Notes under the pieces: model-generated | The model's input: the letters and a program-made list of their open reading frames with translations, nothing else | What the model was told of the DNA's origin: nothing | The model's database searches: none | Shown: in pieces, positions 367 to 63,450 of the stretch | Numbering within the stretch: position 1 is the first letter of the stretch | Layout: the number at the start of each line of letters is the position of its first letter | Translations under genes and position numbers: made by a program | Source: Escherichia coli | GTDB taxonomy: Bacteria > Pseudomonadota > Gammaproteobacteria > Enterobacterales > Enterobacteriaceae | Assembly (NCBI RefSeq): GCF_009931435.1 | Contig: NZ_CP043414.1 | Direction: 5' to 3' (one strand) | Length of the DNA: 64,000 nt

Positions 367-732
<366 letters not shown>

Positions 733-15054: not shown

Positions 15055-15245
15055 GGAAAACATGTCGGATGCGGCGTAAACGCCTTATCCGACCTACGGT
15101 TTGCATCGTTGCAGGCCTGATAAGACGCGGCAAGCGTCGCATCAGGCAACGGCAGTCGGATGCGGCGCAGGCGCCTTATTCGACCTACGGTTTGTGTCGT
15201 GTAGGCCTGATAAGACGCGGCAAGCGTCGCATCAGGCATTACAAG
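15055..15245. repeat. BIME: tandem array of about four REP units
   Basis: repeated gatgcggcgtaaacgccttatccgacctacgg / gcaggcctgataagacgcggcaagcgtcgcatcaggca units. Confidence 0.9.
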
Positions 15246-22204: not shown

Positions 22205-22681
22205 TTAGTCAGGGATTTGTTCTTTTTGATCGCCGGGGACGTCCTGAATAAAAATATTCACACCGCGTTGTTTAATAAAGCGTAAGTCCGCGAGATCTTG
22301 ATCGTCGATATAAACTTTACTGCTGATTTGCTTTTTACCTTCCGAGAAATGCATATTGCCGACGTTGACATCTTTCAGGTCAATGCCACCTTCTATCAAT
22401 TTACGTACCGTTTGCGGCGTACGGCAAATCAAGAAGATTTTCTGATGCGGTGCAGCTTTGCCGATGACGTTAATGGTTTTTTCGATAGTAAAGAAACGAA
22501 TGCCAAAGCCGTAGGTTTCCGCGGTAATACCCATTAATTTTTGTTGAATATCATCGTTAGCGACAACATCATCCACGACTACCAGCAGATTTGCACCGAT
22601 GGTAGATGTCCAGGTCACACCAACCTGACCGTGAACCAGACGGTTATCAATACGGGTTAAGAGAATATTTGGACTGCTCAT
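22205..22681 (-). CDS. agaB: PTS mannose-family EIIB component (galactosamine-specific)
   Basis: 158 aa; RIDNRLVHGQV phospho-His region. Confidence 0.88.
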   Translation of the reverse strand: MSSPNILLTRIDNRLVHGQVGVTWTSTIGANLLVVVDDVVANDDIQQKLMGITAETYGFGIRFFTIEKTINVIGKAAPHQKIFLICRTPQTVRKLIEGGIDLKDVNVGNMHFSEGKKQISSKVYIDDQDLADLRFIKQRGVNIFIQDVPGDQKEQIPD

Positions 22682-22847
22682 TGTGTAATCCTCACCATAA
22701 AGTTGAATAATATAATTTTTTTAAATATATTATTGTTGCGATATTTTACTGATGTATTTATTAAGGTTTAGTTATCTCCTTTACCATTAAGGCACTCCCC
22801 GATATTAATCGGGAAGTACATTGGGATAAATCATAAAAAACTAATGA

Positions 22848-23720
<873 letters not shown>

Positions 23721-37077: not shown

Positions 37078-38439
37078 TTAAAACTTTAATGCATTGGCAA
37101 TGTCTTCTTCGCTTTCTTGTTTAATTATTTCAACTTGTGCTTTGTTTGAGATAATGACAAAGGGAAGATAAACCATTGTGGCAACACCTAAGTTAAAGAG
37201 CGCCAGGAGTAATCCAGCAATGCTACCATTCGAGCTAAAGAACGCATTGAGTCCAGGAGGCATGGTCCAGGGGGCAATATTTGTTGATGGCGGAATAATA
37301 CCCATGTTATAGGCGATTAAGGTAATCCCGGCGAGAATAGGTTGAATCATCACAAACGGGATTAACATAATGGGGTTCATAATGATCGGCAAACCAAATA
37401 AAATAGGTTCGTTGATATTAAAGATACCAGAAGGTAACGCTAATTTAGCAACCTGACGATAATCTTCCCGGCGTGACGCAATGAAAATGGCGAAAATGAG
37501 TCCCAGCGTTGCCCCTGTTCCACCGAGGAACACGTAAGCGTCAAGCATTGGCCCGGTCCAGAAATGGAAGGTTTTTCCTGCTTCCAGTGCCGCTTGTACT
37601 GAACCATATTGTGTATAGGTGGCGATATTCTCCAGTCCCCACGGACCCAACGTGCTGCTTTGCAACGCGGTTAATACTAAGCCGCCGTGGATACCAAAGA
37701 ACCATAACAGGGAATTAAAGACAACGAATGTCCAGCCAACAATACCGCTCATTGACGTTAATGGCGTAGCCAGTGAGGTGATAATGACCTGATGGAAATT
37801 GGTGCCATATATCGACAATATCCCAGACAAACTACCCATAATTAACAGGATGATAAACCCGGGCACCATTGCTGAGAATGAGCGTGATACTGCGGTCGGA
37901 ACACTCGCGGGCAACCGAATCACCCAATTGCGGCGGATAATAAAAGCGAAAATTTCCGCTACAACTAATCCAATGATCATACCAGACAGAATATTGGCGC
38001 CGCCTAACCAGTTTGCACCAATGACATTAGCGGTTTCTCCTGCCTTGAAGGGGGTGACAGTCATAAACGCTGCGACAGAGAGTAAGCCAACGGATAACGA
38101 ATCAACTTTCCGTTCTTCGGCCAACCCCATCCCAATAAAAAAGGGGGTCATGAGTGACATAATGCCCAGCGTGCCATGATAAGCACTGTCACCGACGACG
38201 GTGAAGGCGCTTAAGGTTTTTATGGTCGATGGTTCCAGTCGGACGCCTAATGAATAAAAAAAGGAGCCTTCGCCAAAATCTAAAAAAACGCTATTAATGA
38301 GGACAAATAACGTACCGGCTAACGTTAATGGCATCATACGGATAAAACCGTTTTTTATTGCATTGACGTGAGGTTGTTTCCCTAATTTAACTGCAAAAGG
38401 AAGAATGAGTTTTTCAAGTAACGCCATCACTCCGGGCAT
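37078..38439 (-). CDS. PTS lactose/cellobiose-family EIIC component (ChbC-like)
   Basis: 453-aa polytopic membrane ORF with the lactose/cellobiose-family EIIC motif …[14 protein letters not shown]…. Confidence 0.85.
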
Positions 38440-38508
38440 AAAAATATCCTTATATACCGATTAATGTATCACTGCGACTTTGGTTTTATTAATATCCTGT
38501 TGCTATGG

Positions 38509-38826
38509 TTACTTTTGCTCTTTTTTTATTATGGCGATAGCTGATTTTAGAACACCTAAGCCATCAATTTTTCCATATAACATTGAATCAATAACTTCCA
38601 CTGGCTTTCCTGGTAATAAGCTTTGGATCTCTGATTGCATGTAAGCAATTTGAGGTCCCAATAATATAACATCGGCTTCCGGCCCTTTCTCTGCGGCAAC
38701 AGATTCGGAGAATGCTTCGATAATTACTGGCACATCATATTTTATCGCCTGCACTTTCATTTTTGACACCAGCAGTGATGTTGACATTCCCGCTGAACAA
38801 AATAAGTATATTTTTTTCTTTTCCAT
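38509..38826 (-). CDS. PTS lactose/cellobiose-family EIIB component (ChbB-like), 105 aa
   Basis: ORF 38509..39042; start set at [23 protein letters not shown] (phospho-Cys motif), preceded by GGAG. Confidence 0.8.
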
Positions 38827-39059
38827 AGGGACTCCAGATATATTACGTAATAATATATTTGTCATGCCATGAATGGCATATGAGGCGACTTTAATTAAAA
38901 AGGCACGGATGTTTATATTGATTTCCTGAATGTCGTCTTTTGGTATTAATCTCAAAAATTTCAGGAGCCATTGAATAATCTGGTTTATAGGATTGAATGT
39001 CAAGAGAGTGAAATTGTGGGCGTGTTGTAATAAAAATAGCACGGCTTTCGGTAGGTTTC

Positions 39060-39165
39060 TTTTTTAGCGGAATGAAAAGTACAGGCAAAATGGTAATTGA
39101 ATAAATTAACGTTTTTTCAATAGATTACGTTTTTTTCTGCCTACAGGAATGAAAAAAACAACAAT
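39060..39165 (-). promoter_or_regulatory. putative promoter/operator region of the EIIB-led operon with two GGAATGAAAA repeats
   Basis: gcggaatgaaaagtacagg and acaggaatgaaaaaaacaac about 75 bp apart in AT-rich DNA upstream of the EIIB start. Confidence 0.35.
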
Positions 39166-39211
39166 CTAAAAATACTTTAGATATGTGAGAGTTATCACTT
39201 ACTTTTCGTGG

Positions 39212-39245
39212 GGAAAACGGGGAAACACAGTCTCCCCGTTTTCCG
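39212..39245 (-). terminator. garD rho-independent terminator
   Basis: aaacgggga...tccccgttt hairpin immediately downstream of garD stop. Confidence 0.65.
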
Positions 39246-39259
39246 TTCATGCAAGGCCG

Positions 39260-40831
39260 TCAAGTCACCGGTGCCGGGTTAAACACCGCCAGCTGGTTAT
39301 GCAGTCCCCATTGATCTGAGAAGGTTTTCTTCTTCCCGCTGGCGACGTCGAGAATAAAATGGAACAATTTCCAGCCCACCTCTTCAATAGTTTCTTCGCC
39401 GGTAGCGATGGTGCCCGCATTAATATCCATTAAATCAAACCAGCGGTTCGCCAGCTCGGTGCGGGTCGCCATTTTAATGACGGGTACCGCCATCAGGCCG
39501 TACGGCGTGCCGCGACCGGTCGTAAACACTTGCACGGTAATCCCTGATGCCACCTGTTGCGTGCCACAGACAAAATCGCTGGCTGGCGTCGCGGCGTAAA
39601 TTAATCCGCGTTTAGTCGGGCGTTGACCGGGCGATAGCACTTCAACAATTGCGCTTTTACCCGATTTAGCAATGGAGCCGAGAGCCTTCTCCACTACGTT
39701 TGCCAGACCGCCTTTCTTGTTGCCCGGAGAAGGGTTGGCGCTGCGGTCGGTTTTTCCCATATTGAGATAGTTATCGTACCACTCCATCTCCTCCAGCAGC
39801 CGTTTGCCGACCTCTTCGTTCACTGCGCGTGGTGTCAGCAGATGGATCGCGTCACGCACTTCTGTGACTTCTGAAAACATCACCGTTGCGCCGCAGCGCA
39901 CCAGTAGATCAGACGCATACCCAACCGCCGGGTTTGCCGTTACGCCAGAAAACGCATCGCTGCCACCGCACTGCATGCCGACAACCAGTTCTGAAGCCGG
40001 ACAGGTTTCTCGCTGACGTTGATTCAGTTTTTGTAGATGGCGTTCGGCGACCTGCAAAATATCCTCGACCATGGACTGAAAACCGACATGCTTTTCATCC
40101 TGCAAACTGACAATGCTGGCGCTTTCTACTGGAATAGCTTGCACATCATCCGTTCCAGTCAGCAGGCGCTCAGGCTGCAACTTTTCACAACCCAGACCAA
40201 TCACCATTACTTCGCCGCCAAAGTTAGGGTTCAGCGAAATATTGTGAATGGTACGAATAGGCACAACTGCCGCCGGTGCGTTAATCGCCACGCCACAACC
40301 GTACAAATGATTCAGCCCCACCACGCCATCGACGTTCGGGTATTTCGGTAGCAGATCGCGTTCAATGATTTTTACTACATAGTCCACCACGCCTGCCACA
40401 CAGTGGACGCTGGTGGTGATGCCGAGCAGGTTTTTGGTGCCCACGCTGCCATCGGCATTGCGATAGCCCTCAAAGGTGTATCCTTCCAGTGGCGGTAAGG
40501 GGGCCGGGACTTTAGTTGCCAGTGGCAGCGTGTGTAACGGTGGCGCTTCCGGTAGTACAACCATTGATTCGTCGATCCAGCTTCCGCGTGGGATTGCGCG
40601 CACGGCGTAACCAATCACTTCACCATAACGAATAATTTCACCATTAGCCGGAATGTCCAGCAATGCGACTTTATGCCCCTGGGGAATATGTTCAATTAAT
40701 TCCAGCCCATCCGGAAAACGCGTTCCTGCTTTCAGGCCATTATCATTAACAATAATTGCCACATTATCTGTGTCGTGAACTTTTATATAAAACGCAGTTG
40801 GCGTTTCTTGTCTGATTTCGATGTTGGCCAT
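39260..40831 (-). CDS. garD: galactarate dehydratase (L-threo-3-deoxy-hexulosonate-forming)
   Basis: 523 aa; [28 protein letters not shown]...; divergent from garPLRK. Confidence 0.9.
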
Positions 40832-41205
40832 TGTGCAATATTCTCCAGCCAGGGGTTATTAAAATGAGGACCTGGTCTCATTTAAAAATAAATGACTTCA
40901 TTGGGTGAAATAAGAATGTCAGGAGTTTAAACGCAGAAATGTGATCAATGTCAATCATTTCAGGGATTGCAGTGCCGCCCGGCAGGGTAAAGCGCAAATC
41001 TGTGCTTTAGCGCGCAACCTTATGTGCATATGCTCAAAATAATATTTAAATAGTAATAATTAAATTAGCATTTGCACAATGATTATTATTCTCTCGCTGC
41101 TTATACTAATTCCTGAGTTCATTGTCGTAACGGCATAAATTAAACTCATAAATAACACCTTCCCCATAATAATAAAAATCAGCATAAGTACCCGAGGTAA
41201 ATAAA

Positions 41206-42540
41206 ATGATTCTGGACACCGTTGACGTAAAAAAGAAAGGCGTGCATACCCGCTATTTAATATTACTGATTATTTTTATTGTTACCGCCGTTAACTACGC
41301 CGATCGTGCAACGCTGTCTATTGCTGGTACCGAAGTGGCAAAAGAGTTGCAGTTAAGTGCGGTTTCGATGGGTTACATCTTTTCTGCTTTTGGCTGGGCC
41401 TACTTGCTGATGCAAATCCCCGGCGGCTGGCTGCTTGATAAGTTTGGCTCGAAAAAAGTTTACACCTACAGCCTCTTTTTCTGGTCGCTATTCACCTTCC
41501 TGCAAGGCTTTGTTGATATGTTCCCGCTGGCCTGGGCAGGGATCTCCATGTTCTTTATGCGCTTTATGCTCGGCTTCTCGGAAGCGCCATCATTCCCGGC
41601 GAACGCCCGTATTGTCGCCGCCTGGTTCCCGACGAAAGAACGTGGTACTGCCTCCGCCATCTTTAACTCGGCGCAATATTTCTCGCTGGCGCTCTTTTCG
41701 CCTCTGCTTGGCTGGCTGACTTTCGCCTGGGGATGGGAGCACGTCTTTACCGTTATGGGGGTGATTGGTTTTGTGCTGACGGCGCTGTGGATCAAGTTGA
41801 TTCATAACCCGACAGATCACCCACGTATGTCTGCGGAAGAGCTGAAGTTTATATCTGAAAATGGCGCGGTGGTCGATATGGACCACAAAAAGCCGGGCAG
41901 CGCGGCAGCAAGCGGTCCCAAACTGCATTACATCAAGCAATTGCTCTCTAACCGCATGATGTTGGGCGTATTTTTCGGACAATATTTTATCAACACCATC
42001 ACCTGGTTCTTCCTCACCTGGTTCCCGATTTATCTGGTGCAGGAAAAAGGCATGTCGATTCTGAAAGTGGGTCTGGTCGCCTCGATTCCGGCACTGTGTG
42101 GTTTTGCGGGCGGCGTGCTGGGAGGTGTCTTCTCGGATTATCTGATCAAACGCGGTTTGTCCCTGACCCTGGCACGTAAGCTACCGATTGTGCTGGGAAT
42201 GTTGCTGGCTTCCACCATCATATTATGTAACTACACCAACAACACCACGCTGGTGGTCATGCTGATGGCGCTGGCTTTTTTTGGCAAAGGATTTGGTGCT
42301 CTGGGCTGGCCGGTGATTTCTGACACCGCGCCGAAAGAGATTGTTGGCCTCTGCGGCGGCGTCTTTAACGTCTTTGGAAATGTTGCCTCCATTGTCACTC
42401 CACTGGTGATTGGCTACCTGGTAAGTGAACTGCACTCCTTCAATGCAGCACTGGTTTTCGTGGGATGTTCAGCGCTGATGGCGATGGTCTGCTACCTCTT
42501 CGTAGTTGGCGACATTAAACGTATGGAATTGCAGAAATAA
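41206..42540 (+). CDS. garP: MFS galactarate/glucarate/glycerate transporter
   Basis: 444 aa MFS permease, first gene of garPLRK. Confidence 0.9.
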   Translation: MILDTVDVKKKGVHTRYLILLIIFIVTAVNYADRATLSIAGTEVAKELQLSAVSMGYIFSAFGWAYLLMQIPGGWLLDKFGSKKVYTYSLFFWSLFTFLQGFVDMFPLAWAGISMFFMRFMLGFSEAPSFPANARIVAAWFPTKERGTASAIFNSAQYFSLALFSPLLGWLTFAWGWEHVFTVMGVIGFVLTALWIKLIHNPTDHPRMSAEELKFISENGAVVDMDHKKPGSAAASGPKLHYIKQLLSNRMMLGVFFGQYFINTITWFFLTWFPIYLVQEKGMSILKVGLVASIPALCGFAGGVLGGVFSDYLIKRGLSLTLARKLPIVLGMLLASTIILCNYTNNTTLVVMLMALAFFGKGFGALGWPVISDTAPKEIVGLCGGVFNVFGNVASIVTPLVIGYLVSELHSFNAALVFVGCSALMAMVCYLFVVGDIKRMELQK

Positions 42541-44246: not shown

Positions 44247-44342
44247 TGACGTCGTGCCCGGATGGCGTATTGCAATCCGGGCCTGGAATCCAGGCCGAAT
44301 AAGAGAAACGCCCTCCGGCGTCATGTGGTAACAGGCATAGGT

Positions 44343-45488
44343 ATGAAAATCGTAATCGCCCCAGACTCTTATAAAGAAAGTTTATCTGCCAGCGAGGTTG
44401 CGCAGGCGATAGAAAAAGGATTTCGGGAAATTTTTCCTGATGCACAGTATGTTTCCGTTCCGGTTGCCGACGGTGGTGAAGGAACGGTGGAAGCCATGAT
44501 TGCAGCCACCCAGGGGGCTGAACGTCACGCCTGGGTTACAGGGCCGCTGGGCGAGAAAGTGAATGCCAGTTGGGGGATCTCCGGCGATGGCAAAACCGCG
44601 TTTATCGAAATGGCGGCGGCCAGTGGGCTGGAACTGGTACCTGCGGAAAAACGCGATCCACTTGTGACCACTTCACGCGGTACTGGCGAATTAATCCTGC
44701 AGGCGCTGGAGAGCGGCGCGACAAACATTATTATCGGCATTGGCGGCAGCGCCACCAACGACGGCGGCGCAGGCATGGTGCAGGCGCTGGGGGCGAAATT
44801 ATGCGATGCCAACGGCAATGAAATTGGTTTTGGCGGCGGTAGCCTTAATACTCTGAATGATATTGATATTTCCGGCCTCGATCCGCGCTTAAAAGATTGT
44901 GCTATTCGCGTCGCTTGTGATGTCACCAATCCGCTGGTGGGCGATAACGGCGCATCGCGCATCTTTGGCCCACAAAAGGGAGCCAGTGAAGCGATGATTG
45001 TCGAGCTGGACAATAACCTCTCTCACTATGCCGATGTCATTAAAAAAGCGCTGCATGTTGATGTGAAAGATGTCCCCGGCGCAGGAGCTGCGGGCGGTAT
45101 GGGCGCGGCGCTGATGGCGTTTCTTGGTGCGGAACTGAAAAGTGGTATTGAAATCGTCACGACGGCGCTGAATCTGGAGGAACATATTCACGATTGTACG
45201 CTGGTGATCACCGGTGAAGGGCGTATTGACAGCCAGAGTATACACGGCAAGGTTCCGATTGGCGTCGCAAACGTGGCGAAAAAGTACCATAAACCGGTGA
45301 TTGGCATTGCGGGTAGCCTGACCAATGATGTTGGCGTTGTACATCAGCATGGCATTGATGCGGTCTTCAGCGTATTGACCAGTATTGGTACGTTGGATGA
45401 AGCATTCCGCGGGGCTTATGACAATATTTACCGTGCTTCACGTAATATCGCCGCGACACTGGCGATTGGAATGCGCAACGCGGGGTGA
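44343..45488 (+). CDS. garK: glycerate 2-kinase (381 aa)
   Basis: ORF 44262..45488; start set at MKIVIAPDSYKESL (glycerate kinase family N-terminus). Confidence 0.9.
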   Translation: MKIVIAPDSYKESLSASEVAQAIEKGFREIFPDAQYVSVPVADGGEGTVEAMIAATQGAERHAWVTGPLGEKVNASWGISGDGKTAFIEMAAASGLELVPAEKRDPLVTTSRGTGELILQALESGATNIIIGIGGSATNDGGAGMVQALGAKLCDANGNEIGFGGGSLNTLNDIDISGLDPRLKDCAIRVACDVTNPLVGDNGASRIFGPQKGASEAMIVELDNNLSHYADVIKKALHVDVKDVPGAGAAGGMGAALMAFLGAELKSGIEIVTTALNLEEHIHDCTLVITGEGRIDSQSIHGKVPIGVANVAKKYHKPVIGIAGSLTNDVGVVHQHGIDAVFSVLTSIGTLDEAFRGAYDNIYRASRNIAATLAIGMRNAG

Positions 45489-45520: not shown

Positions 45521-45897
<377 letters not shown>

Positions 45898-45904
45898 ATT
45901 TTAA

Positions 45905-45940
45905 CGAAAACCCGCCAGCGTAAACTGGCGGGTTTTTGCT
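45905..45940 (+). terminator. rnpB rho-independent terminator
   Basis: aacccgccagcgtaaactggcgggtttttgctttt. Confidence 0.8.
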
Positions 45941-45959
45941 TTTGAGGAGGGTGGTCGGA

Positions 45960-46060
45960 AAGATGAACGTCTTATCTGGCCTACAAAACAACGAAAATTC
46001 AATATATTGCACAGAGGCAATGTAGGCCTGATAAGCGTAGCGCCTCAGGCAATTTTGTGT
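45960..46060. repeat. REP palindromic elements
   Basis: ggcctacaaaac... and gtaggcctgataagcgtagcgcctcaggc units. Confidence 0.75.
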
Positions 46061-46169
46061 TTATCATCAGTCTCGAACCTGCTTCGGCAAGCTTTTACTT
46101 TTGGTGCAGACGGAAAGATGAACGAATATCTAAGCTATTAATAATAGACTTTGCAAGAAATCATTACAT

Positions 46170-47339
46170 TTATATTTCATTTAAAAGATCGTAATCATAC
46201 GTATATTCTTTGCTAATAAAACGACACTCGTTGAAGCTAAATTTATCGTCTGAAAAGGAATTGTCAACAGAATCTCTCTCTTCCTCCAGGCTATTATCTG
46301 AAAGCAAGTCGTTTGAGTTAGTATAATCTAGGTTGTAATCGACAGTATAATTAATTTCTGGATCGGTTTGGTAATCATTTTTTTTGACGCAATCATATTC
46401 TTCAATAATTTTGTCGATATAATCATATGCTTTTTCTAATGAGAAGTTTTTCATCTCTGGTAATTTAACTTTGCTCAAATAATTATTAATTTTTGAGGAG
46501 TTTTTATATATGCTTTTTGTTAATTCTTTTTCTAATTTGTCTGTTATATTTGCTGTTGGTATGGATTTTATAATCGCATATCTCATGATTTTTAATTGAT
46601 CTTCGGTTAAATCTCCAAGCTCATTTAAACAACTTTCGACAAAGTTGATTTTTTCTCTGGAATAATCATCGCTGATACTTGTTAACGCTGGGGTGATTTT
46701 TAATAAAGAATTCCATGAGATAGTACCATTGTGTGTCGAACGCATAAAATTTATATTGTACATATTGGTTTTAGTAAACTTTGTTGCAAACAATGTAAAG
46801 GGATCTAAAGTCGCGTAAGCCATATGTTTATTTGAAAAATCATAACCAGTTAAATCGACGTTATGCAAGTCCAGATAGGATAAATCTATTACGTCGCCTG
46901 CTCCAGAGCTAAAGATTACATTTAATCTTCTGATTTCATTGTAAATTTTATTTAATGAACAATTTGTGTTCATGATGTCTGCTGAAATTTTTATGTTATT
47001 TAACGGTTCACAAATTATAAGCTCGCAGGTATTGTCTGATCGTTGCGTTATTTGGGCATTATAACCTAAAAAGTCTATGCGAAGAGACGAGTCATTATAA
47101 ATTATTACATTTTTTAAGTATGCTAATTCTTGTTGAAAATCACCATCGATAATACATGTCCCACCAGGTTGCAACGCGCTGATTAACGTGAGCATTTGAT
47201 TAGAAGTCTGTTTTAGTTTTACTACACCTGGTGCTAGTGCTTTGAGGTCATTTATTATGGGGGTTTCAGGAATGTCATTCATTTTTATACATACTAAATT
47301 ATTACCTAAGTCATTACCTATTGATGAAACCGGGAACAT
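46170..47339 (-). CDS. yhaC: AT-rich uncharacterised protein with pentapeptide-repeat segment (YhaC-like)
   Basis: 389 aa; DLSYL/DLHNV/DLTGY/DFSNK five-residue periodicity; acidic Asp/Asn/Tyr-rich C-terminus; low GC by eye. Confidence 0.7.
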   Translation of the reverse strand: MFPVSSIGNDLGNNLVCIKMNDIPETPIINDLKALAPGVVKLKQTSNQMLTLISALQPGGTCIIDGDFQQELAYLKNVIIYNDSSLRIDFLGYNAQITQRSDNTCELIICEPLNNIKISADIMNTNCSLNKIYNEIRRLNVIFSSGAGDVIDLSYLDLHNVDLTGYDFSNKHMAYATLDPFTLFATKFTKTNMYNINFMRSTHNGTISWNSLLKITPALTSISDDYSREKINFVESCLNELGDLTEDQLKIMRYAIIKSIPTANITDKLEKELTKSIYKNSSKINNYLSKVKLPEMKNFSLEKAYDYIDKIIEEYDCVKKNDYQTDPEINYTVDYNLDYTNSNDLLSDNSLEEERDSVDNSFSDDKFSFNECRFISKEYTYDYDLLNEI

Positions 47340-47360
47340 TATTTTATCCTTTTTAAATAA

Positions 47361-47900
47361 TCAATGAGAATCATGATTAAAATGATCTGGTGAAAAAAAG
47401 AGAATTTGCCAACAATCTGAAACATTGTCAGTTTTATTAAAATGATTAAATTCCGTTAAGATAACTTCTTTTTGCGTGAACTTTGCGCAAAACTTAAAAA
47501 TTGTCTCCTTGATACACTCCAGATCTTTTCTATTGATGGCTGAACAAGTACATTTTTCGCCAAAAGGTGAAAATGTGCCTACATCTAAAGTTTGTATTAT
47601 ATAATCATCATTTACTCCTGTAGAAATATCAATGATGAATGGACTTCTATTTTCCGGTTGGATTCGGATCATTACAGAAGAAACATCACCTTTATAGACA
47701 TTCAATGCAGTAATCGCAGATAATATTCTCCGCAATTCATTGCTTATGCTGTAAATTTCATTAACGTCATTTGTCGATATAATCTCGGCAAATTTTATTT
47801 TTACCTTCCAATAATCAATGTTTCTATTATAAGTGTTAACAGTCTCGTACATTGGTGGTATCGAAGGGGGTAAAAAATGTGAAACCGAATAACCTTTCAT
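47361..47900 (-). CDS. yhaB: AT-rich uncharacterised protein (YhaB-like), 179 aa
   Basis: ORF 47361..47930; start tentatively set at MKGYSVSHFLPP; 21 nt upstream of yhaC on the same strand. Confidence 0.65.
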   Translation of the reverse strand: MKGYSVSHFLPPSIPPMYETVNTYNRNIDYWKVKIKFAEIISTNDVNEIYSISNELRRILSAITALNVYKGDVSSVMIRIQPENRSPFIIDISTGVNDDYIIQTLDVGTFSPFGEKCTCSAINRKDLECIKETIFKFCAKFTQKEVILTEFNHFNKTDNVSDCWQILFFSPDHFNHDSH

Positions 47901-48138
47901 TGATGCCTGCCTTGTCATCATGACAAACAATAATCAATGCTTATTCTCCTTGCACGGTTCGCTCACAACTATCAAAAAACGCTCAATTACCCGGCATTAC
48001 AGTCAACGAAGCAAAATTCTGTGGTCTACAACGATGTAAAGCACAACGAAAATCCTCCTTGTTCTCTTCTTCTGATCGTATAGCGATGAACATCAATTAT
48101 TCGTTTTGTGATCCTCAACACAAAATGCTATTTAGTAA

Positions 48139-48513
48139 CTATGGTGACAGTAGAAACGAGGGGAAACGATTGCATTCACAAAATGACGTCCTGTAAGAAG
48201 GGTGAAAGTTGATGTTAATCAATTGTTCGAGATGATCAATATCTGTATTCAAAATTTTAAAACATTGATAAAATAAATGTTTGTCCTCCAACAAATAGCG
48301 AGAAAAAATGTGACGTGCCGCATTATTTATCGCTGAAAATGATTTATTTATAATAAAATTTGATAACTTGCTCATAAAATTTAACTCAAAATTTGCCTGG
48401 TAATTATCCGCTAATTGCTTGAAATATGGTCGCAGCTGCTTTTTTTTATTAACCACATAACGAATGATGTTATCGCCATAAAATATGGTTATCCCTGTCA
48501 TTTTTTTTGACAA
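48139..48513 (-). CDS. tdcR: AT-rich small ORF at the tdcR position, divergent from tdcA; true start uncertain (internal Met at MSKLSNFII)
   Basis: 124-codon ORF, location upstream of and divergent from tdcABC. Confidence 0.55.
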   Translation of the reverse strand: MSKKMTGITIFYGDNIIRYVVNKKKQLRPYFKQLADNYQANFELNFMSKLSNFIINKSFSAINNAARHIFSRYLLEDKHLFYQCFKILNTDIDHLEQLININFHPSYRTSFCECNRFPSFLLSP

Positions 48514-48689
48514 AAATCAGGGTTTATGCTGATTTATATACTTTAACTTATTGATATATAAAAATATTTAATTGATACAGTGATGTCCAAAAAAGTATTG
48601 AAAGTTAATTTGTGAGTGGTCGCACATATCCTGTTCATTTCATTTTGATACACTTCATGCCGTCAATGAGGTTATTAACGTAGGTAGTT

Positions 48690-49628
48690 ATGAGCACTAT
48701 TCTTCTTCCGAAAACGCAGCATCTGGTAGTCTTTCAGGAAGTCATTAGAAGTGGCTCTATCGGCTCGGCTGCAAAAGAATTAGGGTTAACTCAACCCGCC
48801 GTCAGTAAAATCATTAACGATATTGAAGACTATTTTGGCGTGGAATTAGTGGTGCGGAAAAATACCGGTGTAACATTAACACCTGCCGGTCAATTGTTAC
48901 TCTCCCGTTCCGAATCCATTACCCGTGAAATGAAAAATATGGTTAATGAGATAAGCGGTATGTCTTCTGAGGCGGTGGTGGAAGTCTCATTTGGTTTTCC
49001 TTCATTGATTGGTTTTACTTTTATGTCCGGGATGATCAACAAGTTCAAAGAGGTGTTTCCGAAAGCGCAGGTTTCTATGTATGAAGCGCAACTGTCTTCG
49101 TTCCTACCGGCAATCCGCGACGGTCGCCTGGATTTTGCGATTGGTACGTTAAGCGCAGAAATGAAGCTTCAGGATTTACATGTTGAGCCGCTGTTCGAGT
49201 CCGAGTTTGTGCTGGTAGCCAGTAAGTCCCGAACATGCACCGGCACCACCACGCTGGAGTCGTTGAAGAACGAACAGTGGGTGTTGCCACAAACCAATAT
49301 GGGGTACTACAGCGAGCTGCTTACCACGTTACAAAGAAATGGCATCAGTATTGAAAACATCGTTAAAACTGACTCAGTCGTGACAATTTATAATCTTGTC
49401 CTCAATGCTGATTTCTTAACTGTAATTCCTTGTGATATGACGTCACCTTTTGGTTCTAATCAATTTATTACTATCCCGGTTGAAGAAACATTACCTGTGG
49501 CACAATATGCCGCGGTATGGTCGAAAAATTATCGTATTAAAAAAGCAGCATCGGTTTTGGTGGAATTAGCCAAAGAGTATTCATCTTATAATGGGTGTAG
49601 ACGAAGGCAATTAATAGAAGTTGGTTAG
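48690..49628 (+). CDS. tdcA: LysR-family transcriptional activator of the tdc operon
   Basis: 312 aa, N-terminal LysR HTH (…GSIGSAAKELGLTQPAVSKII…). Confidence 0.9.
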   Translation: MSTILLPKTQHLVVFQEVIRSGSIGSAAKELGLTQPAVSKIINDIEDYFGVELVVRKNTGVTLTPAGQLLLSRSESITREMKNMVNEISGMSSEAVVEVSFGFPSLIGFTFMSGMINKFKEVFPKAQVSMYEAQLSSFLPAIRDGRLDFAIGTLSAEMKLQDLHVEPLFESEFVLVASKSRTCTGTTTLESLKNEQWVLPQTNMGYYSELLTTLQRNGISIENIVKTDSVVTIYNLVLNADFLTVIPCDMTSPFGSNQFITIPVEETLPVAQYAAVWSKNYRIKKAASVLVELAKEYSSYNGCRRRQLIEVG

Positions 49629-49726
49629 TTATTTGTTTTTATTTAAACATAAATAATCCACCTGTCTGTTTTGCAGGTGTCGGTTACGGTTACCTACATA
49701 TTTAATTCAGGCTAAGAGGTTTTATA

Positions 49727-50716
49727 ATGCATATTACATACGATCTCCCGGTTGCTATTGATGACATCATTGAAGCAAAACAACGACTGGCTGGGCGAAT
49801 TTATAAAACAGGCATGCCTCGCTCCAACTATTTTAGTGAACGTTGCAAAGGTGAAATATTCCTCAAATTCGAAAACATGCAGCGTACCGGTTCATTTAAA
49901 ATTCGTGGCGCATTTAATAAATTAAGTTCACTGACCGATGCGGAAAAACGTAAAGGTGTAGTGGCCTGCTCTGCGGGCAACCATGCGCAAGGGGTTTCGC
50001 TCTCCTGCGCGATGCTGGGTATCGACGGTAAAGTGGTGATGCCAAAAGGCGCGCCGAAATCCAAAGTAGCGGCAACGTGCGACTACTCCGCTGAAGTTGT
50101 TTTGCATGGTGATAACTTCAACGACACTATCGCTAAAGTGAGCGAAATTGTCGAAATGGAAGGCCGTATTTTTATCCCACCTTATGATGATCCGAAAGTG
50201 ATTGCCGGTCAGGGAACGATTGGTCTGGAAATTATGGAAGATCTCTATGATGTCGATAACGTGATTGTGCCAATTGGCGGTGGCGGTTTAATTGCTGGTA
50301 TTGCGGTAGCGATTAAATCAATTAACCCGACTATTCGTGTTATTGGTGTACAGTCAGAAAACGTTCACGGCATGGCGGCTTCTTTCCACTCCGGAGAAAT
50401 AACCACGCACCGAACTACCGGCACCCTGGCGGATGGTTGTGATGTCGCCCGCCCGGGTAATTTAACTTACGAAATCGTTCGTGAATTAGTCGATGACATC
50501 GTGCTGGTCAGCGAAGACGAAATCAGAAACAGTATGATTGCCTTAATTCAGCGCAATAAAGTCGTCACCGAAGGTGCAGGCGCTCTGGCATGTGCTGCAT
50601 TATTAAGCGGTAAATTAGACCAATATATTCAAAACAGAAAAACCGTCAGTATTATTTCCGGCGGCAATATCGATCTTTCTCGCGTCTCTCAAATCACCGG
50701 TTTCGTTGACGCTTAA
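49727..50716 (+). CDS. tdcB: catabolic (biodegradative) L-threonine dehydratase, PLP-dependent
   Basis: 329 aa; PLP-Lys motif region …[15 protein letters not shown]…. Confidence 0.92.
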
Positions 50717-62486: not shown

Positions 62487-62843
62487 TTAATTTGAACCAA
62501 ACTTCGGATCGTTTCCGTAACGATTGCTGCCAGAATTGCCTTCTAAACAGGCAAATACAAACAGAACTAACCAGCCAATGACCGGTACCAGATAGAGAAG
62601 CGCCCACGCACCTGAACGGTCAGTATCGTGCAGACGACGAACGCACAGAGCAATGACCGGAATGATTGTTGCTGCCAGGTAAATGAGAGAAAGGAATGGA
62701 AACTCTAAACCTAAAATCAATTGAATGACATTGATAATAGTGCCGACGATGGCGTTAATCAGAGTAAACATCCAGTACTCTTTACGACGTGCACGACCAG
62801 AGAAACCAACATAATTTTTTAATACGGCTAAATACCACTGCAT
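62487..62843 (-). CDS. yhaI: DUF805 inner-membrane protein YhaI
   Basis: 118 aa; MQWYLAVLKNYVGFSGRARRKEYWMF... Confidence 0.85.
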   Translation of the reverse strand: MQWYLAVLKNYVGFSGRARRKEYWMFTLINAIVGTIINVIQLILGLEFPFLSLIYLAATIIPVIALCVRRLHDTDRSGAWALLYLVPVIGWLVLFVFACLEGNSGSNRYGNDPKFGSN

Positions 62844-63045
62844 AAAAACATCCCTTTAATTAAAAGTTGCGAAAGTCTATTCCGGGGATGGAGTAAATGC
62901 TATTCGTATCTTTCTTTTTCGGATGTTATAAAGGTTTTGATATTTAAGATAAATACATGGTCGTGTTTTATATGTAATTTATATAACGACATTGAAATAA
63001 TTTCAATAAACATTAGGAGATTATTTATTCATCAACATGATGATA

Positions 63046-63075
63046 AAAGCCGGATGAGTCAGACATCCGGCGAGG
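63046..63075 (-). terminator. hairpin terminator downstream of yhaH
   Basis: ccggatgagtcagacatccgg inverted repeat; T-rich tract on the minus strand. Confidence 0.55.
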
Positions 63076-63084
63076 AGATTTGTT

Positions 63085-63450
63085 TTAAGGTTCCAGTTTC
63101 GGATCTGGTCCAAAGCGGTTTTCGCCTGGCGTACCTGCCTGGCAGTTAAAGACGATGATAATCAGCCAGCCGATAAACGGAATTAAGAACAGCAGTGCCC
63201 ACCACGCCGAGCGGTCGGTGTCGTGCAGGCGGCGGAACTGAACTGCCCACCATGGTAAAAACACCAGAATACCGTAGATTGTCGTCAGGATGCCTTCGCC
63301 ACCGGCGCGTTGCCAGCCTAACATTTTATCCAGCAGCCCCAGCACGAACGTAAAGATGATGTTGACCAGAATAAACATCCAGTACTCTTTGCGCCGCGCA
63401 CGGCCCCGGAAACCGACATAATTTTTTAGTACTTTCAGATACCAGTCCAT
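63085..63450 (-). CDS. yhaH: DUF805 inner-membrane protein YhaH (121 aa), paralogue of YhaI
   Basis: ORF 63085..63471; start set at MDWYLKVLKNYVGFRGRARRKEYWMF. Confidence 0.85.
   Translation of the reverse strand: MDWYLKVLKNYVGFRGRARRKEYWMFILVNIIFTFVLGLLDKMLGWQRAGGEGILTTIYGILVFLPWWAVQFRRLHDTDRSAWWALLFLIPFIGWLIIIVFNCQAGTPGENRFGPDPKLEP

What the first reader, a model, noticed from the sequence alone, without database searches (positions are those of the whole stretch)
46170..47930. AT-rich yhaB-yhaC cassette with pentapeptide-repeat protein beside rnpB
Two co-directional genes 21 nt apart are far more AT-rich than their neighbours. The larger protein has a run with strict five-residue periodicity (DLSYL DLHNV DLTGY DFSNK ...), characteristic of pentapeptide-repeat beta-helix proteins, and an acidic D/N/Y-rich tail (YTYDYDLLNEI). 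The smaller one has no recognisable motif. Composition suggests horizontally acquired, probably H-NS-silenced DNA. Function is unknown to me; a two-gene module of this kind could be an effector/partner, immunity or defence-like pair.
Basis: partly seen in the sequence, partly recalled or inferred. Interest (0 to 1): 0.5.

Follow-up and report, generated by a model that had tools for sequence, protein, structure and literature searches.

The report
Rare divergent yhaB-yhaC orphan operon
This is the E. coli-only, AT-rich, normally silenced two-gene operon yhaB-yhaC of unknown function, present here as a rare and unusually divergent version; its larger protein does contain a short pentapeptide-repeat segment, but nothing links the pair to any known defence, toxin or secretion system.

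Summary
Two co-directional minus-strand genes lie 21 nt apart, yhaC at 46170-47339 and yhaB at 47361-47900. They converge on rnpB and form the lowest-GC stretch of the window (31% against about 51%, z = -5.5). YhaC has ten consecutive pentads with a central L/F/M. A profile comparison links residues 145-225 to genuine pentapeptide-repeat proteins, but Pfam's own models do not reach significance and AlphaFold2 failed.

The new point is that this is not the K-12 allele. YhaC is 65% and YhaB 78% identical to the common type, inside a sharply bounded 2.3-kb block (dS about 0.5-0.6 against 0.07-0.13 in the flanks). Only 18 of 5,426 complete E. coli genomes carry this haplotype. About 4,300 carry the common type and about 1,085 a deletion remnant. 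Both genes are under purifying selection (dN/dS 0.2-0.4), so they are functional.

No homologue was found outside E. coli/Shigella, in phages or on true plasmids. There were no PADLOC hits, and no homology to the effectors PipB2 or EspX1. Published K-12 data show H-NS occupancy and CRP and FNR sites upstream of yhaB; both sites are present here.

The function is still unknown. My best inference, at low confidence, is a conditionally expressed, non-enzymatic binding pair.

The parts
45521..45897 (+). rnpB (RNase P RNA). It converges on yhaC and marks the left edge of the divergent block.
   Evidence: Rfam RF00010, 319 bits, full length. It is 98-100% identical to other E. coli, while identity collapses immediately 3' of it.
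45905..45938 (.). Bidirectional intrinsic terminator hairpin shared by rnpB (plus strand) and the yhaBC transcript (minus strand).
   Evidence: Folds at -24.3 and -24.2 kcal/mol on the two strands, z about -6 to -6.6, with a T-run after the stem on each strand. Its terminator role is inferred from the structure.
45939..46169 (.). REP-type palindromic spacer between rnpB and yhaC. An inverted REP pair lies at about 45970-46045.
   Evidence: Sequence GCTTATCAGGCCTACA / TGTAGGCCAGATAAGAC and the fold. The spacer length is 107, 273, 613 or 727 nt in different strains, and one strain has an IS621 insertion here. Calling it REP rests on my knowledge of the REP consensus.
46170..47339 (-). yhaC, divergent allele, 389 aa. 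It is acidic (pI 4.6) with no signal peptide or membrane segment evident by eye.
   Evidence: ORF. Full-length match to NCBIfam NF007262 'YhaC family' at 567 bits, E = 1.5e-170, below the 765-bit curated cutoff. 65% identical to K-12-type YhaC. dN/dS is 0.32-0.39 against common alleles. The exact protein is in public collections as 'hypothetical protein'.
46665..46907 (-). Pentapeptide-repeat-like segment of YhaC (residues about 145-225). The strict ten-pentad run is residues 151-200 (46740-46889). A capping helix may precede it (about 129-138).
   Evidence: Period-5 run. hhalign gives 96.6% probability to P0155 over 145-201 and 91.7% to P0140 over 151-233. P0155 is a Pfam pentapeptide-repeat protein at 5.5e-10. 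The profile search hit more than 25 long repeat proteins at positions 140-215. PDB hits to NP275-NP276 and designed repeat proteins are only marginal. Pfam is not significant.
46206..46364 (-). Acidic D/E/N/S/Y-rich tail of YhaC (residues 326-378). Probably disordered and fast-evolving.
   Evidence: 18 acidic against 4 basic residues over 326-389. dN/dS is 0.74-1.34 in sliding windows over codons 301-380. There is a 6-residue length difference between alleles.
46173..46205 (-). Invariant C-terminal peptide YTYxYDLLNxI (residues 379-389).
   Evidence: Y379, T380, Y381, Y383, D384, L385, L386, N387 and I389 are invariant across all allele classes in alignment A1, even though the preceding tail diverges. 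A docking role is inferred.
47340..47360 (-). 21-nt yhaB-yhaC spacer with an AAGGA ribosome-binding site.
   Evidence: Sequence.
47361..47900 (-). yhaB, divergent allele, 179 aa (pI 5.7). The open frame continues upstream to a TTG at 47930. A T7 tract lies at 47393-47399.
   Evidence: ORF. 78% identical to K-12-type YhaB, with the alignment starting at M11 of the long ORF. Relatives carry Pfam PF27690 (UCP004546). dN/dS is 0.22-0.28. No other family hit.
48107..48122 (-). CRP-type site TGTGTTGAGGATCACA, about 210 nt upstream of the yhaB start.
   Evidence: Identical to the K-12 site footprinted by CRP in vitro and assigned to yhaB (PMC12871828). It is the only match in the window, and it sits in a stretch that is otherwise 79-84% identical between alleles.
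48209..48222 (.). Perfect FNR consensus TTGAT-N4-ATCAA inside the 3' part of tdcR, about 310 nt upstream of yhaB.
   Evidence: Only such site in the 64 kb. It corresponds to the K-12 FNR ChIP-chip target listed as 'yhaB' (PMC1802558).
48139..48375 (-). tdcR, the upstream co-directional neighbour. Here it is 78 aa against 72 aa in the common type. Its 3' end lies inside the divergent block.
   Evidence: NCBIfam NF008507, 141.5 bits, residues 47-118 of the long ORF. RefSeq annotation in relatives. Identity profile.
45900..48225 (.). Divergent haplotype block: 71-89% nucleotide identity to the common E. coli allele, against 94-100% outside it. A further dip lies at 48526-48625.
   Evidence: Sliding identity against the K-12-type locus. 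dS is 0.48-0.65 inside, against 0.07-0.13 in garK and tdcA.

Best explanation
**Identity (shown, confidence above 0.95).**
- This is the chromosomal yhaB-yhaC operon of E. coli, sitting between tdcR and rnpB.
- It is a lineage-restricted, AT-rich gene pair that looks foreign in composition and has no relatives outside E. coli/Shigella.
- The window carries a rare haplotype, found in about 0.3% of complete genomes, that is far more diverged from the common allele than the surrounding chromosome.

**Mechanism (inferred, low confidence).**
- The operon is normally kept off by H-NS. I infer that it is turned on through the conserved CRP and FNR sites upstream of yhaB, that is, in anaerobic, sugar-poor, gut-like conditions, like the adjacent tdc operon.
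- It encodes a pair that works by binding rather than by catalysis.
- YhaC is a modular cytoplasmic scaffold with five parts:
  - a unique N-terminal alpha/beta domain;
  - a short beta-helix-like pentapeptide-repeat segment of about three coils, acting as a rigid interaction surface;
  - a helical domain;
  - a floppy acidic tail;
  - an invariant Tyr/Leu-rich C-terminal peptide that docks on a partner.
- YhaB, made from the same transcript 21 nt upstream, is its dedicated partner, either stabilising or regulating it.
- Four features suggest that what YhaC binds itself varies between lineages, or evolves against YhaC, as a mobile-element or phage factor would:
  - strong conservation of the cores;
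  - near-neutral or faster change in the tail and the extreme N-terminus;
  - deep, sharply bounded allele classes with mosaics between them;
  - complete loss in one major lineage.
For: **Identity**
- Synteny garK-rnpB-yhaC-yhaB-tdcR-tdcA.
- Full-length YhaC-family match.
- 65% and 78% identity to the K-12-type proteins.
- Only E. coli/Shigella homologues among 5.8 billion proteins, 1.84 billion cluster representatives, and one genome per species in GTDB.
- None in phages or true plasmids.

**Rarity and divergence**
- 18 of 5,426 genomes carry it at 98.6-99.0% identity, about 4,300 at 79-82%, and none in between.
- The block has sharp edges.
- dS is 0.48-0.65, against 0.07-0.13 in the flanks.

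**Real, functional genes**
- dN/dS is 0.2-0.4 for both genes at every depth of comparison, including among strains of the common type.
- Within the rare class, pN/pS is about 0.35.

**Binding scaffold**
- Repeat segment.
- No enzymatic or other domain detected.
- Acidic tail and invariant terminal peptide.
- Tail dN/dS is 0.7-1.3, against 0.1-0.25 in the cores.

**Regulation**
- H-NS occupancy of the K-12 allele (PMC3661553).
- H-NS-motif density is 3.3 times that of the rest of the window.
- CRP footprint and FNR ChIP target in K-12 (PMC12871828, PMC1802558), with both sites present here.

**Variable partner**
- Three protein classes at 61-67% and 85-89% identity, plus intermediates and a mosaic.
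- An earlier study ranked yhaC among the 14 most strongly 'positively selected' E. coli genes (PMC9110714).
Against: - No structure could be obtained. AlphaFold2 gave a mean pLDDT of 33 for YhaC and 36 for YhaB. The domain plan therefore rests on sequence patterns and low-confidence secondary structure.
- No interaction between YhaB and YhaC, and no target, is shown.
- An unrecognised enzyme cannot be excluded for an orphan protein.
- H-NS, CRP and FNR data exist only for the K-12 allele. The CRP and FNR sites might instead serve tdcR.
- The deep divergence includes synonymous and non-coding sites. It is therefore old or imported variation, not proof of an arms race.
- The published positive-selection signal could be an artefact of recombination between allele classes.
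- The slot never carries alternative cargo. That is unlike typical defence hotspots.
Confidence: 0.35

Rival explanations
1. A type III secretion effector (YhaC) with its chaperone (YhaB). YhaC would be injected into host cells, where the repeat segment and the acidic C-terminal peptide (DxxLL / YxxL-like) engage host trafficking machinery, as with the pentapeptide-repeat effectors PipB2 and EspX.
For: - An AT-rich, Escherichia-only gene with a degenerate mid-protein repeat segment resembles EspX1. EspX1 is likewise an Escherichia-only orphan with no Pfam hit and variable alleles.
- A small gene lies directly upstream.
- The N-terminus evolves fast (dN/dS 0.94 over codons 1-40).
- The C-terminal DYDLL peptide is invariant.
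- The cassette is lost in strains such as CFT073, SE15 and JCM 5491. From my own knowledge these belong to phylogroup B2, which also lacks the ETT2 secretion system.
Against: - hhalign probability is 0.55% to PipB2 and 1% to an EspX1 family profile. BLASTP gives E = 0.4.
- YhaB matches no chaperone family.
- Both genes stay under purifying selection among the common-type strains compared. Several of these, such as the K-12-like strain, lack a working T3SS as far as I know, which is hard to reconcile with a function that needs injection.
- The resemblance to eukaryotic motifs is a short-motif match recalled from memory and was not tested.
Confidence: 0.12
2. An unrecognised anti-phage defence, abortive-infection or toxin-antitoxin pair. 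One protein would be a toxin or effector enzyme of an unknown fold and the other its sensor or inhibitor.
For: - Two-gene, AT-rich, H-NS-silenced layout.
- Repeated loss and deep allelic diversity.
- Pentapeptide-repeat segments occur next to what looks by eye like a TIR-type domain in one hit, P0140.
- In one strain an integrase sits beside rnpB.
Against: - No PADLOC, PHROGs, Pfam or NCBIfam match to any defence, toxin or antitoxin family.
- No DNA-binding antitoxin-like domain.
- The cassette is at a fixed chromosomal site, is absent from phages and plasmids, and no alternative cargo was seen in the slot.
- It is silent in laboratory K-12, and knockouts and a nonsense mutant are tolerated.
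Confidence: 0.2
3. A Qnr/MfpA/McbG-type DNA-mimic repeat protein that protects gyrase or another DNA enzyme. This would fit the Gene Ontology label 'cellular response to DNA damage'.
For: - A repeat segment together with strong overall acidity (pI 4.6).
- The GO label quoted in PMC9110714.
Against: - Only about 10-12 pentads (roughly three coils) are present. From my own knowledge, the gyrase-protecting proteins are repeats almost throughout, about 8-10 coils.
- No Qnr, MfpA or McbG-like structure appears among PDB hits up to E = 10, although PipB2 finds them readily.
- About 75% of YhaC is unrelated sequence.
Confidence: 0.06
4. A functionless, decaying remnant of old foreign DNA that is silenced and simply drifts. 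The divergent haplotype would be neutral old or imported variation.
For: - H-NS silencing.
- Loss in about 20% of genomes.
- Dispensable in K-12 and removed from genome-reduced strains.
- Frameshifted YhaB variants occur in databases.
- Divergence extends to non-coding DNA.
Against: - Both reading frames are intact in about 4,300 of 5,426 genomes, and in both deep haplotypes.
- dN/dS is 0.2-0.4 at all depths.
- The pentad core residues and the C-terminal peptide are invariant across 35% protein divergence.
- The CRP site is conserved 16 of 16 in a diverged spacer.
Confidence: 0.15

Closest known systems
YhaC (UniProt YHAC_ECOLI; NCBIfam NF007262 'YhaC family protein') and YhaB (Pfam PF27690, UCP004546) of E. 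coli K-12
   Same: Same chromosomal slot, order and orientation. Colinear full-length alignment, the same pentad register and the same C-terminal YTYxYDLLNxI peptide. Same AT-richness.
   Different: - Only 65% (YhaC) and 78% (YhaB) identical, with dS about 0.5-0.6.
- Scores 567 bits against the family's 765-bit cutoff, so RefSeq calls both genes 'hypothetical protein'.
- The tail is six residues shorter.
- The REP spacer to rnpB is 273 nt, against 107-727 nt in other strains.
- The function of the reference proteins is itself unknown.
Pentapeptide-repeat proteins (Pfam PF00805/PF13599; solved examples Np275/Np276, PDB 2J8K)
   Same: Tandem x(D/N)(L/F)xx pentads with an invariant hydrophobic centre. 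hhalign gives 96.6% probability to a bona fide member. There is a preceding helix and a trailing cap-like stretch.
   Different: - The repeats are very short and degenerate (about 10-12 pentads).
- Bulky residues sit at the i-2 position.
- Pfam HMMs are not significant.
- The segment is embedded in a 389-aa protein whose other 75% is unique.
- The fold is not confirmed.
Pentapeptide-repeat T3SS effectors PipB2 (Salmonella) and EspX1 (E. coli O157)
   Same: AT-rich enterobacterial orphans with a unique N-terminal region, a mid-protein repeat segment and a functionally important C-terminal end. EspX1 is likewise Escherichia-restricted with no Pfam hits.
   Different: No detectable homology. yhaBC is kept under purifying selection in strains which, as far as I know, lack a working T3SS. 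No evidence of secretion.
H-NS-silenced 'promoter islands' and horizontally acquired AT-rich genes of E. coli K-12 (PMC3661553)
   Same: The K-12 yhaC interior is one of the 78 listed islands, and the tdcA/tdcR spacer is another. The window region is equally AT-rich and rich in H-NS-motif matches.
   Different: H-NS binding has not been measured on this haplotype. Unlike most such islands, the cassette has no identifiable donor or mobile-element relatives.

Membership tests
YhaC family (NCBIfam NF007262, equivalog) | Whole-protein score at or above the curated cutoff of 765 bits | tested here: not met
   567.3 bits, E = 1.5e-170, covering 1-389 of the protein and 1-395 of the model. It is clearly homologous but below the equivalog threshold, and RefSeq labels it 'hypothetical protein'.
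YhaC family (NCBIfam NF007262, equivalog) | Orthologous position: downstream of yhaB and converging on rnpB, between the gar and tdc operons | tested here: met
YhaB (Pfam PF27690, UCP004546) | Match to the family model | tested here: met
   - The precomputed PF27690 hit is recorded on the cluster representative, which is 99% identical to the window protein.
- It is also recorded on the 179-aa product in loci L017 and L018.
- The Pfam-A copy used by profile_search returned no hit to this family.
Pentapeptide-repeat proteins (Pfam PF00805/PF13599/PF13576) | At least about eight tandem five-residue repeats with a central L/F and the (S,T,A,V)(D,N)(L,F)(S,T,R)(G) tendency | tested here: met
   Ten consecutive pentads with L/F/M at the centre, residues 151-200, and D/N at i-1 in six of the ten. 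No equal run in 20,000 shuffles. The centres are conserved across all alleles.
Pentapeptide-repeat proteins (Pfam PF00805/PF13599/PF13576) | Significant match to a family HMM | tested here: not met
   PF00805 gives E = 7.4. PF13599 gives at best 0.057, in 3 of 11 alleles.
Pentapeptide-repeat proteins (Pfam PF00805/PF13599/PF13576) | Profile-level similarity to accepted members | tested here: met
   hhalign gives 96.6% to P0155 (Pfam PF13599 at 5.5e-10) and 91.7% to P0140. More than 25 repeat proteins were hit at E from 5.6e-9 to 1e-3 among 1.84 billion proteins. PDB matches to 2J8K and designed repeat proteins are marginal, at E = 0.05-2.7.
Pentapeptide-repeat proteins (Pfam PF00805/PF13599/PF13576) | Right-handed quadrilateral beta-helix fold | tested here: inconclusive
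   The AlphaFold2 model has a mean pLDDT of 33 and residues 140-205 are modelled as coil.
Pentapeptide-repeat T3SS effectors (PipB2 / EspX) | Sequence homology to a family member | tested here: not met
   hhalign gives 0.55% to PipB2 (its residues 17-161 were checked against PDB 2LEZ; the rest was recalled from memory) and 1% to a six-sequence EspX1 profile.
Pentapeptide-repeat T3SS effectors (PipB2 / EspX) | T3SS-dependent translocation into host cells | not testable with these tools
   Needs reporter-fusion translocation assays.
Qnr/MfpA/McbG-type DNA-mimic repeat proteins | Protein consists almost wholly of repeats (about 8-10 coils) and is similar to family members | tested here: not met
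   The repeat segment is about 60-80 of 389 residues. No Qnr, MfpA or McbG chain appears among PDB hits up to E = 10. The coil count of the reference proteins is from my own knowledge.
Known anti-phage defence systems (PADLOC-DB v2) | Match of either protein to a defence-system model | tested here: not met
   No families at E up to 1 for either protein.
Type II toxin-antitoxin pairs | Recognisable toxin fold together with an antitoxin that has a DNA-binding domain | tested here: not met
   No Pfam, NCBIfam or PHROGs match of that kind for either protein. Toxicity was not testable.
H-NS-silenced horizontally acquired DNA | AT-richness well above the host average, plus H-NS occupancy | tested here: inconclusive
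   Composition is met (GC 0.313, z = -5.5; H-NS-motif density 5.45 per kb against 1.63 per kb). Occupancy is shown only for the K-12 allele in the literature and has not been measured on this haplotype.

The most novel reading that the evidence does not exclude
yhaBC could be an uncharacterised conflict module held in E. coli as a long-lived polymorphism. There are at least three haplotype classes, and the class in this window differs from the others by dS of about 0.5-0.65, against 0.07-0.13 in the two flanking genes compared. Under this reading, YhaC's repeat surface and its invariant acidic DxxLL/YxxL-like C-terminal peptide would recognise a fast-evolving foreign partner. That partner could be a phage or plasmid protein inside the cell, or a host trafficking adaptor if YhaC is exported. 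The different haplotypes would then have different specificities.
Probability: 0.15. Interest if true: 0.65.

Novelty: new member of a known kind. Interest (0 to 1): 0.33.

Why it matters
- **Status of the genes.** yhaB and yhaC are among the long-standing genes of unknown function in the best-studied bacterium.
- **What this work adds.**
  - The locus is real, selectively maintained and strictly E. coli-specific.
  - It exists as sharply bounded, deeply diverged haplotypes alongside a frequent deletion.
- **Why that is useful.**
  - It gives a natural allelic series for experiments: common type, rare type and null.
  - It gives concrete handles: the hydrophobic pentad cores, the invariant 11-residue C-terminal peptide, and the CRP and FNR sites.
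- **Practical points.**
  - Curated family cutoffs leave the rare allele labelled 'hypothetical'.
  - Tests for positive selection at this gene are probably confounded by recombination between allele classes.
- **If the function is mundane.** The finding is then simply a well-documented example of silenced foreign DNA.

Tried and rejected
- **AlphaFold2 on both proteins, using allele alignments.** Mean pLDDT was 33 and 36. The models are unusable, so no fold search was run.
- **Pfam hits other than pentapeptide.** Pox_VLTF3 (E = 0.0023), DUF7480, DUF5876, HSDR_N and F_bP_aldolase. All are weak, inconsistent between alleles, and treated as chance.
- **PDB hit to a methylene-THF dehydrogenase (5ZF1, E = 0.008).** hhalign against E. 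coli FolD, whose sequence I recalled from memory, gave 0.6% probability. Rejected.
- **PipB2 lead** (similar domain order and C-terminal end). hhalign 0.55%. Rejected as homology.
- **EspX1 lead.** hhalign 1%. Rejected.
- **PADLOC and PHROGs.** PADLOC gave nothing. The PHROGs hits were not significant; the best, phrog_923 at E = 0.0074, has unknown function and covers the repeat region.
- **NCBIfam 'T6SS immunity lipoprotein' hit.** E = 0.21. Treated as chance.
- **Search for a donor or relatives in other species.**
  - The scan of one genome per species returned only two MAG contigs, labelled Collinsella and Bacteroides. Both are 95-97% identical to E. coli DNA, so they are contamination.
  - 'Escherichia sp. 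HH091_1A' carries the rare allele but has ordinary E. coli flanks, 99% identical to the window.
- **Short hits in the representative search** (P0104, P0107, P0137, P0099). These look like chimeric or error-ridden assemblies, not new architectures.
- **Phage and plasmid collections.** One non-significant haloarchaeal virus repeat protein was found. The four 'plasmid' hits are three mislabelled chromosomes of about 4.8-4.9 Mb and one 354-kb record that I did not examine.
- **Promoter and terminator consensus scan.** No more sites than in shuffled sequence, and it missed the rnpB hairpin, which I then confirmed by folding.
- **Repeat scan of the locus.** Only short chance-level repeats.
- **Literature.** Searching by gene name and b-number found no functional study. 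Several hits were unrelated acronyms.


Full report
**1. What is at the coordinates.**
- The minus strand carries a 389-aa ORF at 46170-47339 and a 189-aa ORF at 47361-47930, with 21 nt between them.
- The spacer holds an AAGGA ribosome-binding site in front of the larger gene.
- The smaller ORF most likely starts at the ATG at 47900, giving 179 aa.
  - RefSeq annotates all close relatives at 540 nt.
  - The alignment to K-12-type YhaB begins at that methionine.
  - The upstream TTG has no ribosome-binding site.
- The local gene order is garK (+), rnpB (+, 45521-45897, Rfam 319 bits), yhaC (-), yhaB (-), tdcR (-), tdcA (+). Transcription therefore runs tdcR, then yhaB, then yhaC, and converges on rnpB.
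- A strong hairpin at 45905-45938 (-24 kcal/mol on either strand, z about -6, a T-run on both sides) is positioned to terminate both rnpB and yhaBC.
- Between that hairpin and yhaC lies a REP-type palindromic spacer. Its length differs between strains, at 107, 273, 613 or 727 nt.

**2. The compositional claim.**
- GC is 0.313 over 46170-47930. Tiles of the same size elsewhere in the window average 0.509 (sd 0.036), giving z = -5.5. This is the lowest tile in the 64 kb (profile).
- Third-position GC is 0.27-0.30, against 0.54 in garK.
- The low-GC zone runs from the end of rnpB to the tdcR-tdcA spacer, about 45900-49000.
- Matches to the H-NS high-affinity motif are 3.3 times denser there than in the rest of the window.

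**3. The pentapeptide claim.**
- Residues 151-200 form ten consecutive pentads with L, L, L, F, M, L, L, F, M, F at the central position.
- No run of ten occurred in 20,000 shuffles, and other periods give runs of at most four. The residue set was chosen after seeing the sequence.
- These central residues are invariant across all allele classes, while the outward-facing positions vary.
- Pfam's models do not reach significance. PF00805 gives E = 7.4, and PF13599 gives at best 0.057 in three of eleven alleles.
- Three further lines support the assignment:
  - A profile of eleven alleles, searched against 1.84 billion cluster representatives, found only E. coli-type sequences plus more than 25 long proteins. 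Those proteins match positions 140-215 repeatedly, at E from 5.6e-9 to 1e-3. By eye they are classic pentapeptide-repeat proteins.
  - hhalign gives 96.6% probability to one of these, P0155, over residues 145-201, and 91.7% to P0140 over 151-233. P0155 is a Pfam pentapeptide protein at 5.5e-10.
  - Against the PDB, eight of the ten hits up to E = 10 are pentapeptide-repeat structures aligned to the same region. None is individually significant; the best is 2J8K at E = 0.048.
- AlphaFold2 gave an unusable model with mean pLDDT 33.
- Verdict: a short, degenerate pentapeptide-repeat segment of about three coils is likely. The fold is unconfirmed, and it makes up only about a fifth of the protein.

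**4. The rest of the proteins.**
- YhaC is acidic, with pI 4.6.
- Residues 326-389 hold 18 acidic and 4 basic residues and end in YTYDYDLLNEI.
- The last eleven residues follow the pattern YTYxYDLLNxI in every allele, although the tail before them is the fastest-evolving part of the protein.
- YhaB is mildly acidic (pI 5.7). Its only family assignment is Pfam PF27690, named UCP004546, an uncharacterised family.
- Neither protein matched anything informative in Pfam, NCBIfam, PHROGs or PADLOC. A YhaB profile matched nothing in the PDB. AlphaFold2 on YhaB gave pLDDT 36.

**5. This is not the usual allele.**
- The proteins are only 65% (YhaC) and 78% (YhaB) identical to the common, K-12-type versions.
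- YhaC scores 567 bits against the 765-bit cutoff of the NCBIfam YhaC model. That is why RefSeq labels both genes 'hypothetical protein' in strains that carry this version.
- Nucleotide identity to a common-type locus is 94-100% through garK and rnpB. It drops to 71-89% from 45900 to about 48225, dips again at 48526-48625, and returns to 94-100% in tdcA.
- Divergence, this allele against common alleles, with two flanking genes for comparison:

| Gene | dS | dN/dS |
|---|---|---|
| yhaC | 0.55-0.65 | 0.32-0.39 |
| yhaB | 0.47-0.56 | 0.22-0.26 |
| garK (flank) | 0.13 | 0.05 |
| tdcA (flank) | 0.07 | 0 |

- The non-coding DNA upstream of yhaB is as diverged as the genes. This is therefore old or imported variation, not only fast protein evolution.
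- State of the locus in 5,426 complete E. coli genomes:

| State | Genomes |
|---|---|
| This haplotype (98.6-99.0% identity) | 18 |
| Common type, near full length (79-82% identity) | about 4,300 |
| Deletion remnant only | about 1,085 |
| No match | 22 |

- No genome falls between 90% and 95% identity, and none is identical to the window.
- The deletion carriers include CFT073, SE15 and JCM 5491. To my knowledge these are phylogroup B2.
- The common type itself splits into two protein classes that are 85-89% identical, with intermediates. One database sequence is a mosaic of common and rare types.
- Carriers of the rare haplotype have closely related flanks, 0.15-0.9% apart. Their yhaB is nearly identical (0-0.56%), while yhaC varies more (0.85-2.4%). 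Part of that variation comes in patches that look like conversion from other alleles.

**6. Are these functional genes?** Yes, on the evolutionary evidence.
- dN/dS is 0.14-0.39 in every comparison between allele classes and among the common-type alleles. Only the closest pair, the window against L001, is uninformative (yhaC 12 non-synonymous against 3 synonymous changes).
- Within the rare class there are 27 non-synonymous and 19 synonymous segregating codons, where neutrality predicts a ratio of 4.1 to 1.
- Along YhaC, dN/dS is 0.10-0.25 over the N-terminal domain, the first half of the repeats and the helical domain.
- It rises to 0.6 in the second half of the repeats, and to 0.7-1.3 in the extreme N-terminus and the acidic tail.
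- A published genome scan placed yhaC among the 14 most strongly 'positively selected' genes in wastewater E. coli (PMC9110714). With recombining allele classes that signal may be inflated, although the tail does evolve at or above the neutral rate.

**7. Taxonomic range and mobility.**
- All homologues found among 5.8 billion proteins are from E. coli or Shigella.
- The exhaustive profile search found one full-length cluster only.
- A scan of one genome per bacterial species returned only two MAG contigs, and both are E. coli contamination.
- There are no relatives in 50,697 phage records. The four plasmid-collection hits are three mislabelled chromosomes and one 354-kb record that I did not examine.
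- A phylostratigraphy study lists yhaB-yhaC as a young, homogeneous operon of unknown function (PMC12218254).
- The slot was not seen to hold alternative cargo. I saw only the two allele types, the deletion, and in one strain an integrase with IS26 that replaces the region.

**8. Regulation, from the literature on K-12 mapped onto the window.**
- The inside of K-12 yhaC is one of 78 'promoter islands'. It is bound by H-NS in all ChIP data sets compared and predicted foreign by three methods. The tdcA/tdcR spacer is another such island (PMC3661553).
- An in-vitro CRP footprint upstream of yhaB (PMC12871828) is present unchanged at 48107-48122, inside a stretch that is otherwise 79-84% identical between alleles.
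- The FNR ChIP-chip target listed as 'yhaB' (PMC1802558) corresponds to 48209-48222. In this haplotype it is a perfect TTGAT-N4-ATCAA, the only one in the 64 kb.
- Genomic SELEX also reported RpoS and RpoH holoenzyme peaks within yhaB (PMC5493296).
- I infer that the operon is silent in the laboratory and inducible in anaerobic, catabolite-poor conditions, like the neighbouring tdc operon. This has not been shown for yhaBC itself.

**9. Tests of specific functional ideas.**
- **T3SS effector plus chaperone.**
  - PipB2 gave hhalign 0.55%. Its residues 17-161 were checked against PDB 2LEZ; the rest was recalled from memory.
  - A six-sequence EspX1 profile gave 1%.
  - YhaB matches no chaperone family.
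  - Purifying selection persists among strains which, as far as I know, lack a working T3SS.
  - I rate this idea as unlikely but not excluded.
- **Defence or toxin-antitoxin.** There were no PADLOC, Pfam or NCBIfam hits, the cassette has a fixed locus, and it has no mobile-element relatives. It remains possible only as an undescribed system.
- **Qnr-like DNA mimic.** The repeat segment is too short, and no such PDB hits were found.
- **Decaying junk.** This is contradicted by the selection data in section 6.

**10. Best reading.**
- Identity is secure: a rare, deeply divergent haplotype of the E. coli-specific, H-NS-silenced yhaBC operon.
- The mechanism is an inference at about 0.35 confidence. 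I read it as a conditionally expressed, non-enzymatic binding pair.
  - YhaC offers a short repeat surface and an invariant C-terminal docking peptide on an acidic tether.
  - YhaB is its co-expressed partner.
  - The target either varies between lineages or evolves against YhaC.
- What is shown: gene structure, composition, periodicity, profile similarity, population distribution, selection regime, and the presence of the binding sites.
- What is inferred: the fold, the interaction, the docking role of the C-terminal peptide, the induction conditions, and the nature of the target.

**11. Novelty and score.**
- The genes, their AT-richness and their H-NS silencing are already known. As I recall, older K-12 annotation already called YhaC 'pentapeptide repeats-related'.
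- New here are the recognition of a rare haplotype that falls below the family's curated cutoff, the sharp boundaries and depth of the divergence, and the evidence of selection.
- I classify it as a new member of a known kind, of moderate-to-low interest (0.33), with a modest chance (about 0.15) that it hides an undescribed conflict or host-interaction module.

Noticed in passing
L004:6776-9806 (NZ_CP148498.1), the position equivalent to window ~46170 onward: In one strain a tyrosine integrase gene starts 278 nt after rnpB and is followed by IS26 and then cyuP. The whole yhaC-to-tdc region is missing. The 3' side of rnpB may serve as an integration site.
   Followed up: no
window 45939-46169; L002, L008-L011: The REP-type spacer between rnpB and yhaC varies in length (107, 273, 613 or 727 nt). 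One strain (L009) has an IS621 transposase gene next to yhaC where rnpB is expected.
   Followed up: partly
window 47393-47399 (T7 tract near the yhaB 3' end): - A large database cluster of YhaB (P0074, 3,287 members) has an alternative C-terminus, ...FFHPIILIMIFIDYL, which fits a frameshift at this T-run.
- Other variants shift frame after CTCSA.
- One 547-aa entry (P0015) looks like a YhaB-YhaC fusion.
- I did not determine whether this is real polymorphism or assembly error.
   Followed up: partly
window 48139-48375 (tdcR): TdcR is 78 aa in the rare haplotype, against 72 aa in the common type. Its 3' end lies inside the divergent block. In one carrier (strain N96) it is annotated as frameshifted.
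   Followed up: no
L014 (strain RMDEC465), yhaC codons 23-50: Five clustered amino-acid changes (I23L, T26N, K43I, N47K, L50V) occur inside an otherwise rare-type allele. Two of them (I23L, L50V) match the common type, which suggests a short gene-conversion patch. P0008 is a larger mosaic, with a common-type N-terminus and a rare-type C-terminus.
   Followed up: partly
L006, L007 (MAG contigs labelled Collinsella sp. and uncultured Bacteroides sp.): Both contigs are 95-97% identical to the E. coli yhaC/tdc locus. These species-representative MAGs therefore contain E. coli contamination.
   Followed up: yes
window 22401-22900, 38401-39300, 40701-41300, 49301-49900, 62601-63200: Other short patches with GC below 0.38 in 500-nt tiles. 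None is as long or as deep as the yhaBC block.
   Followed up: no
window 405-519, 748-919, 15114-15185: Rfam also finds the S15 leader, the SraG sRNA and naRNA4 (CssrE). The last sits in a REP-rich spot.
   Followed up: no
window 44262-45488 (garK): The longest garK ORF is 408 aa. RefSeq relatives annotate 381 aa, which corresponds to an ATG at 44343. The first 27 codons are probably not translated.
   Followed up: no
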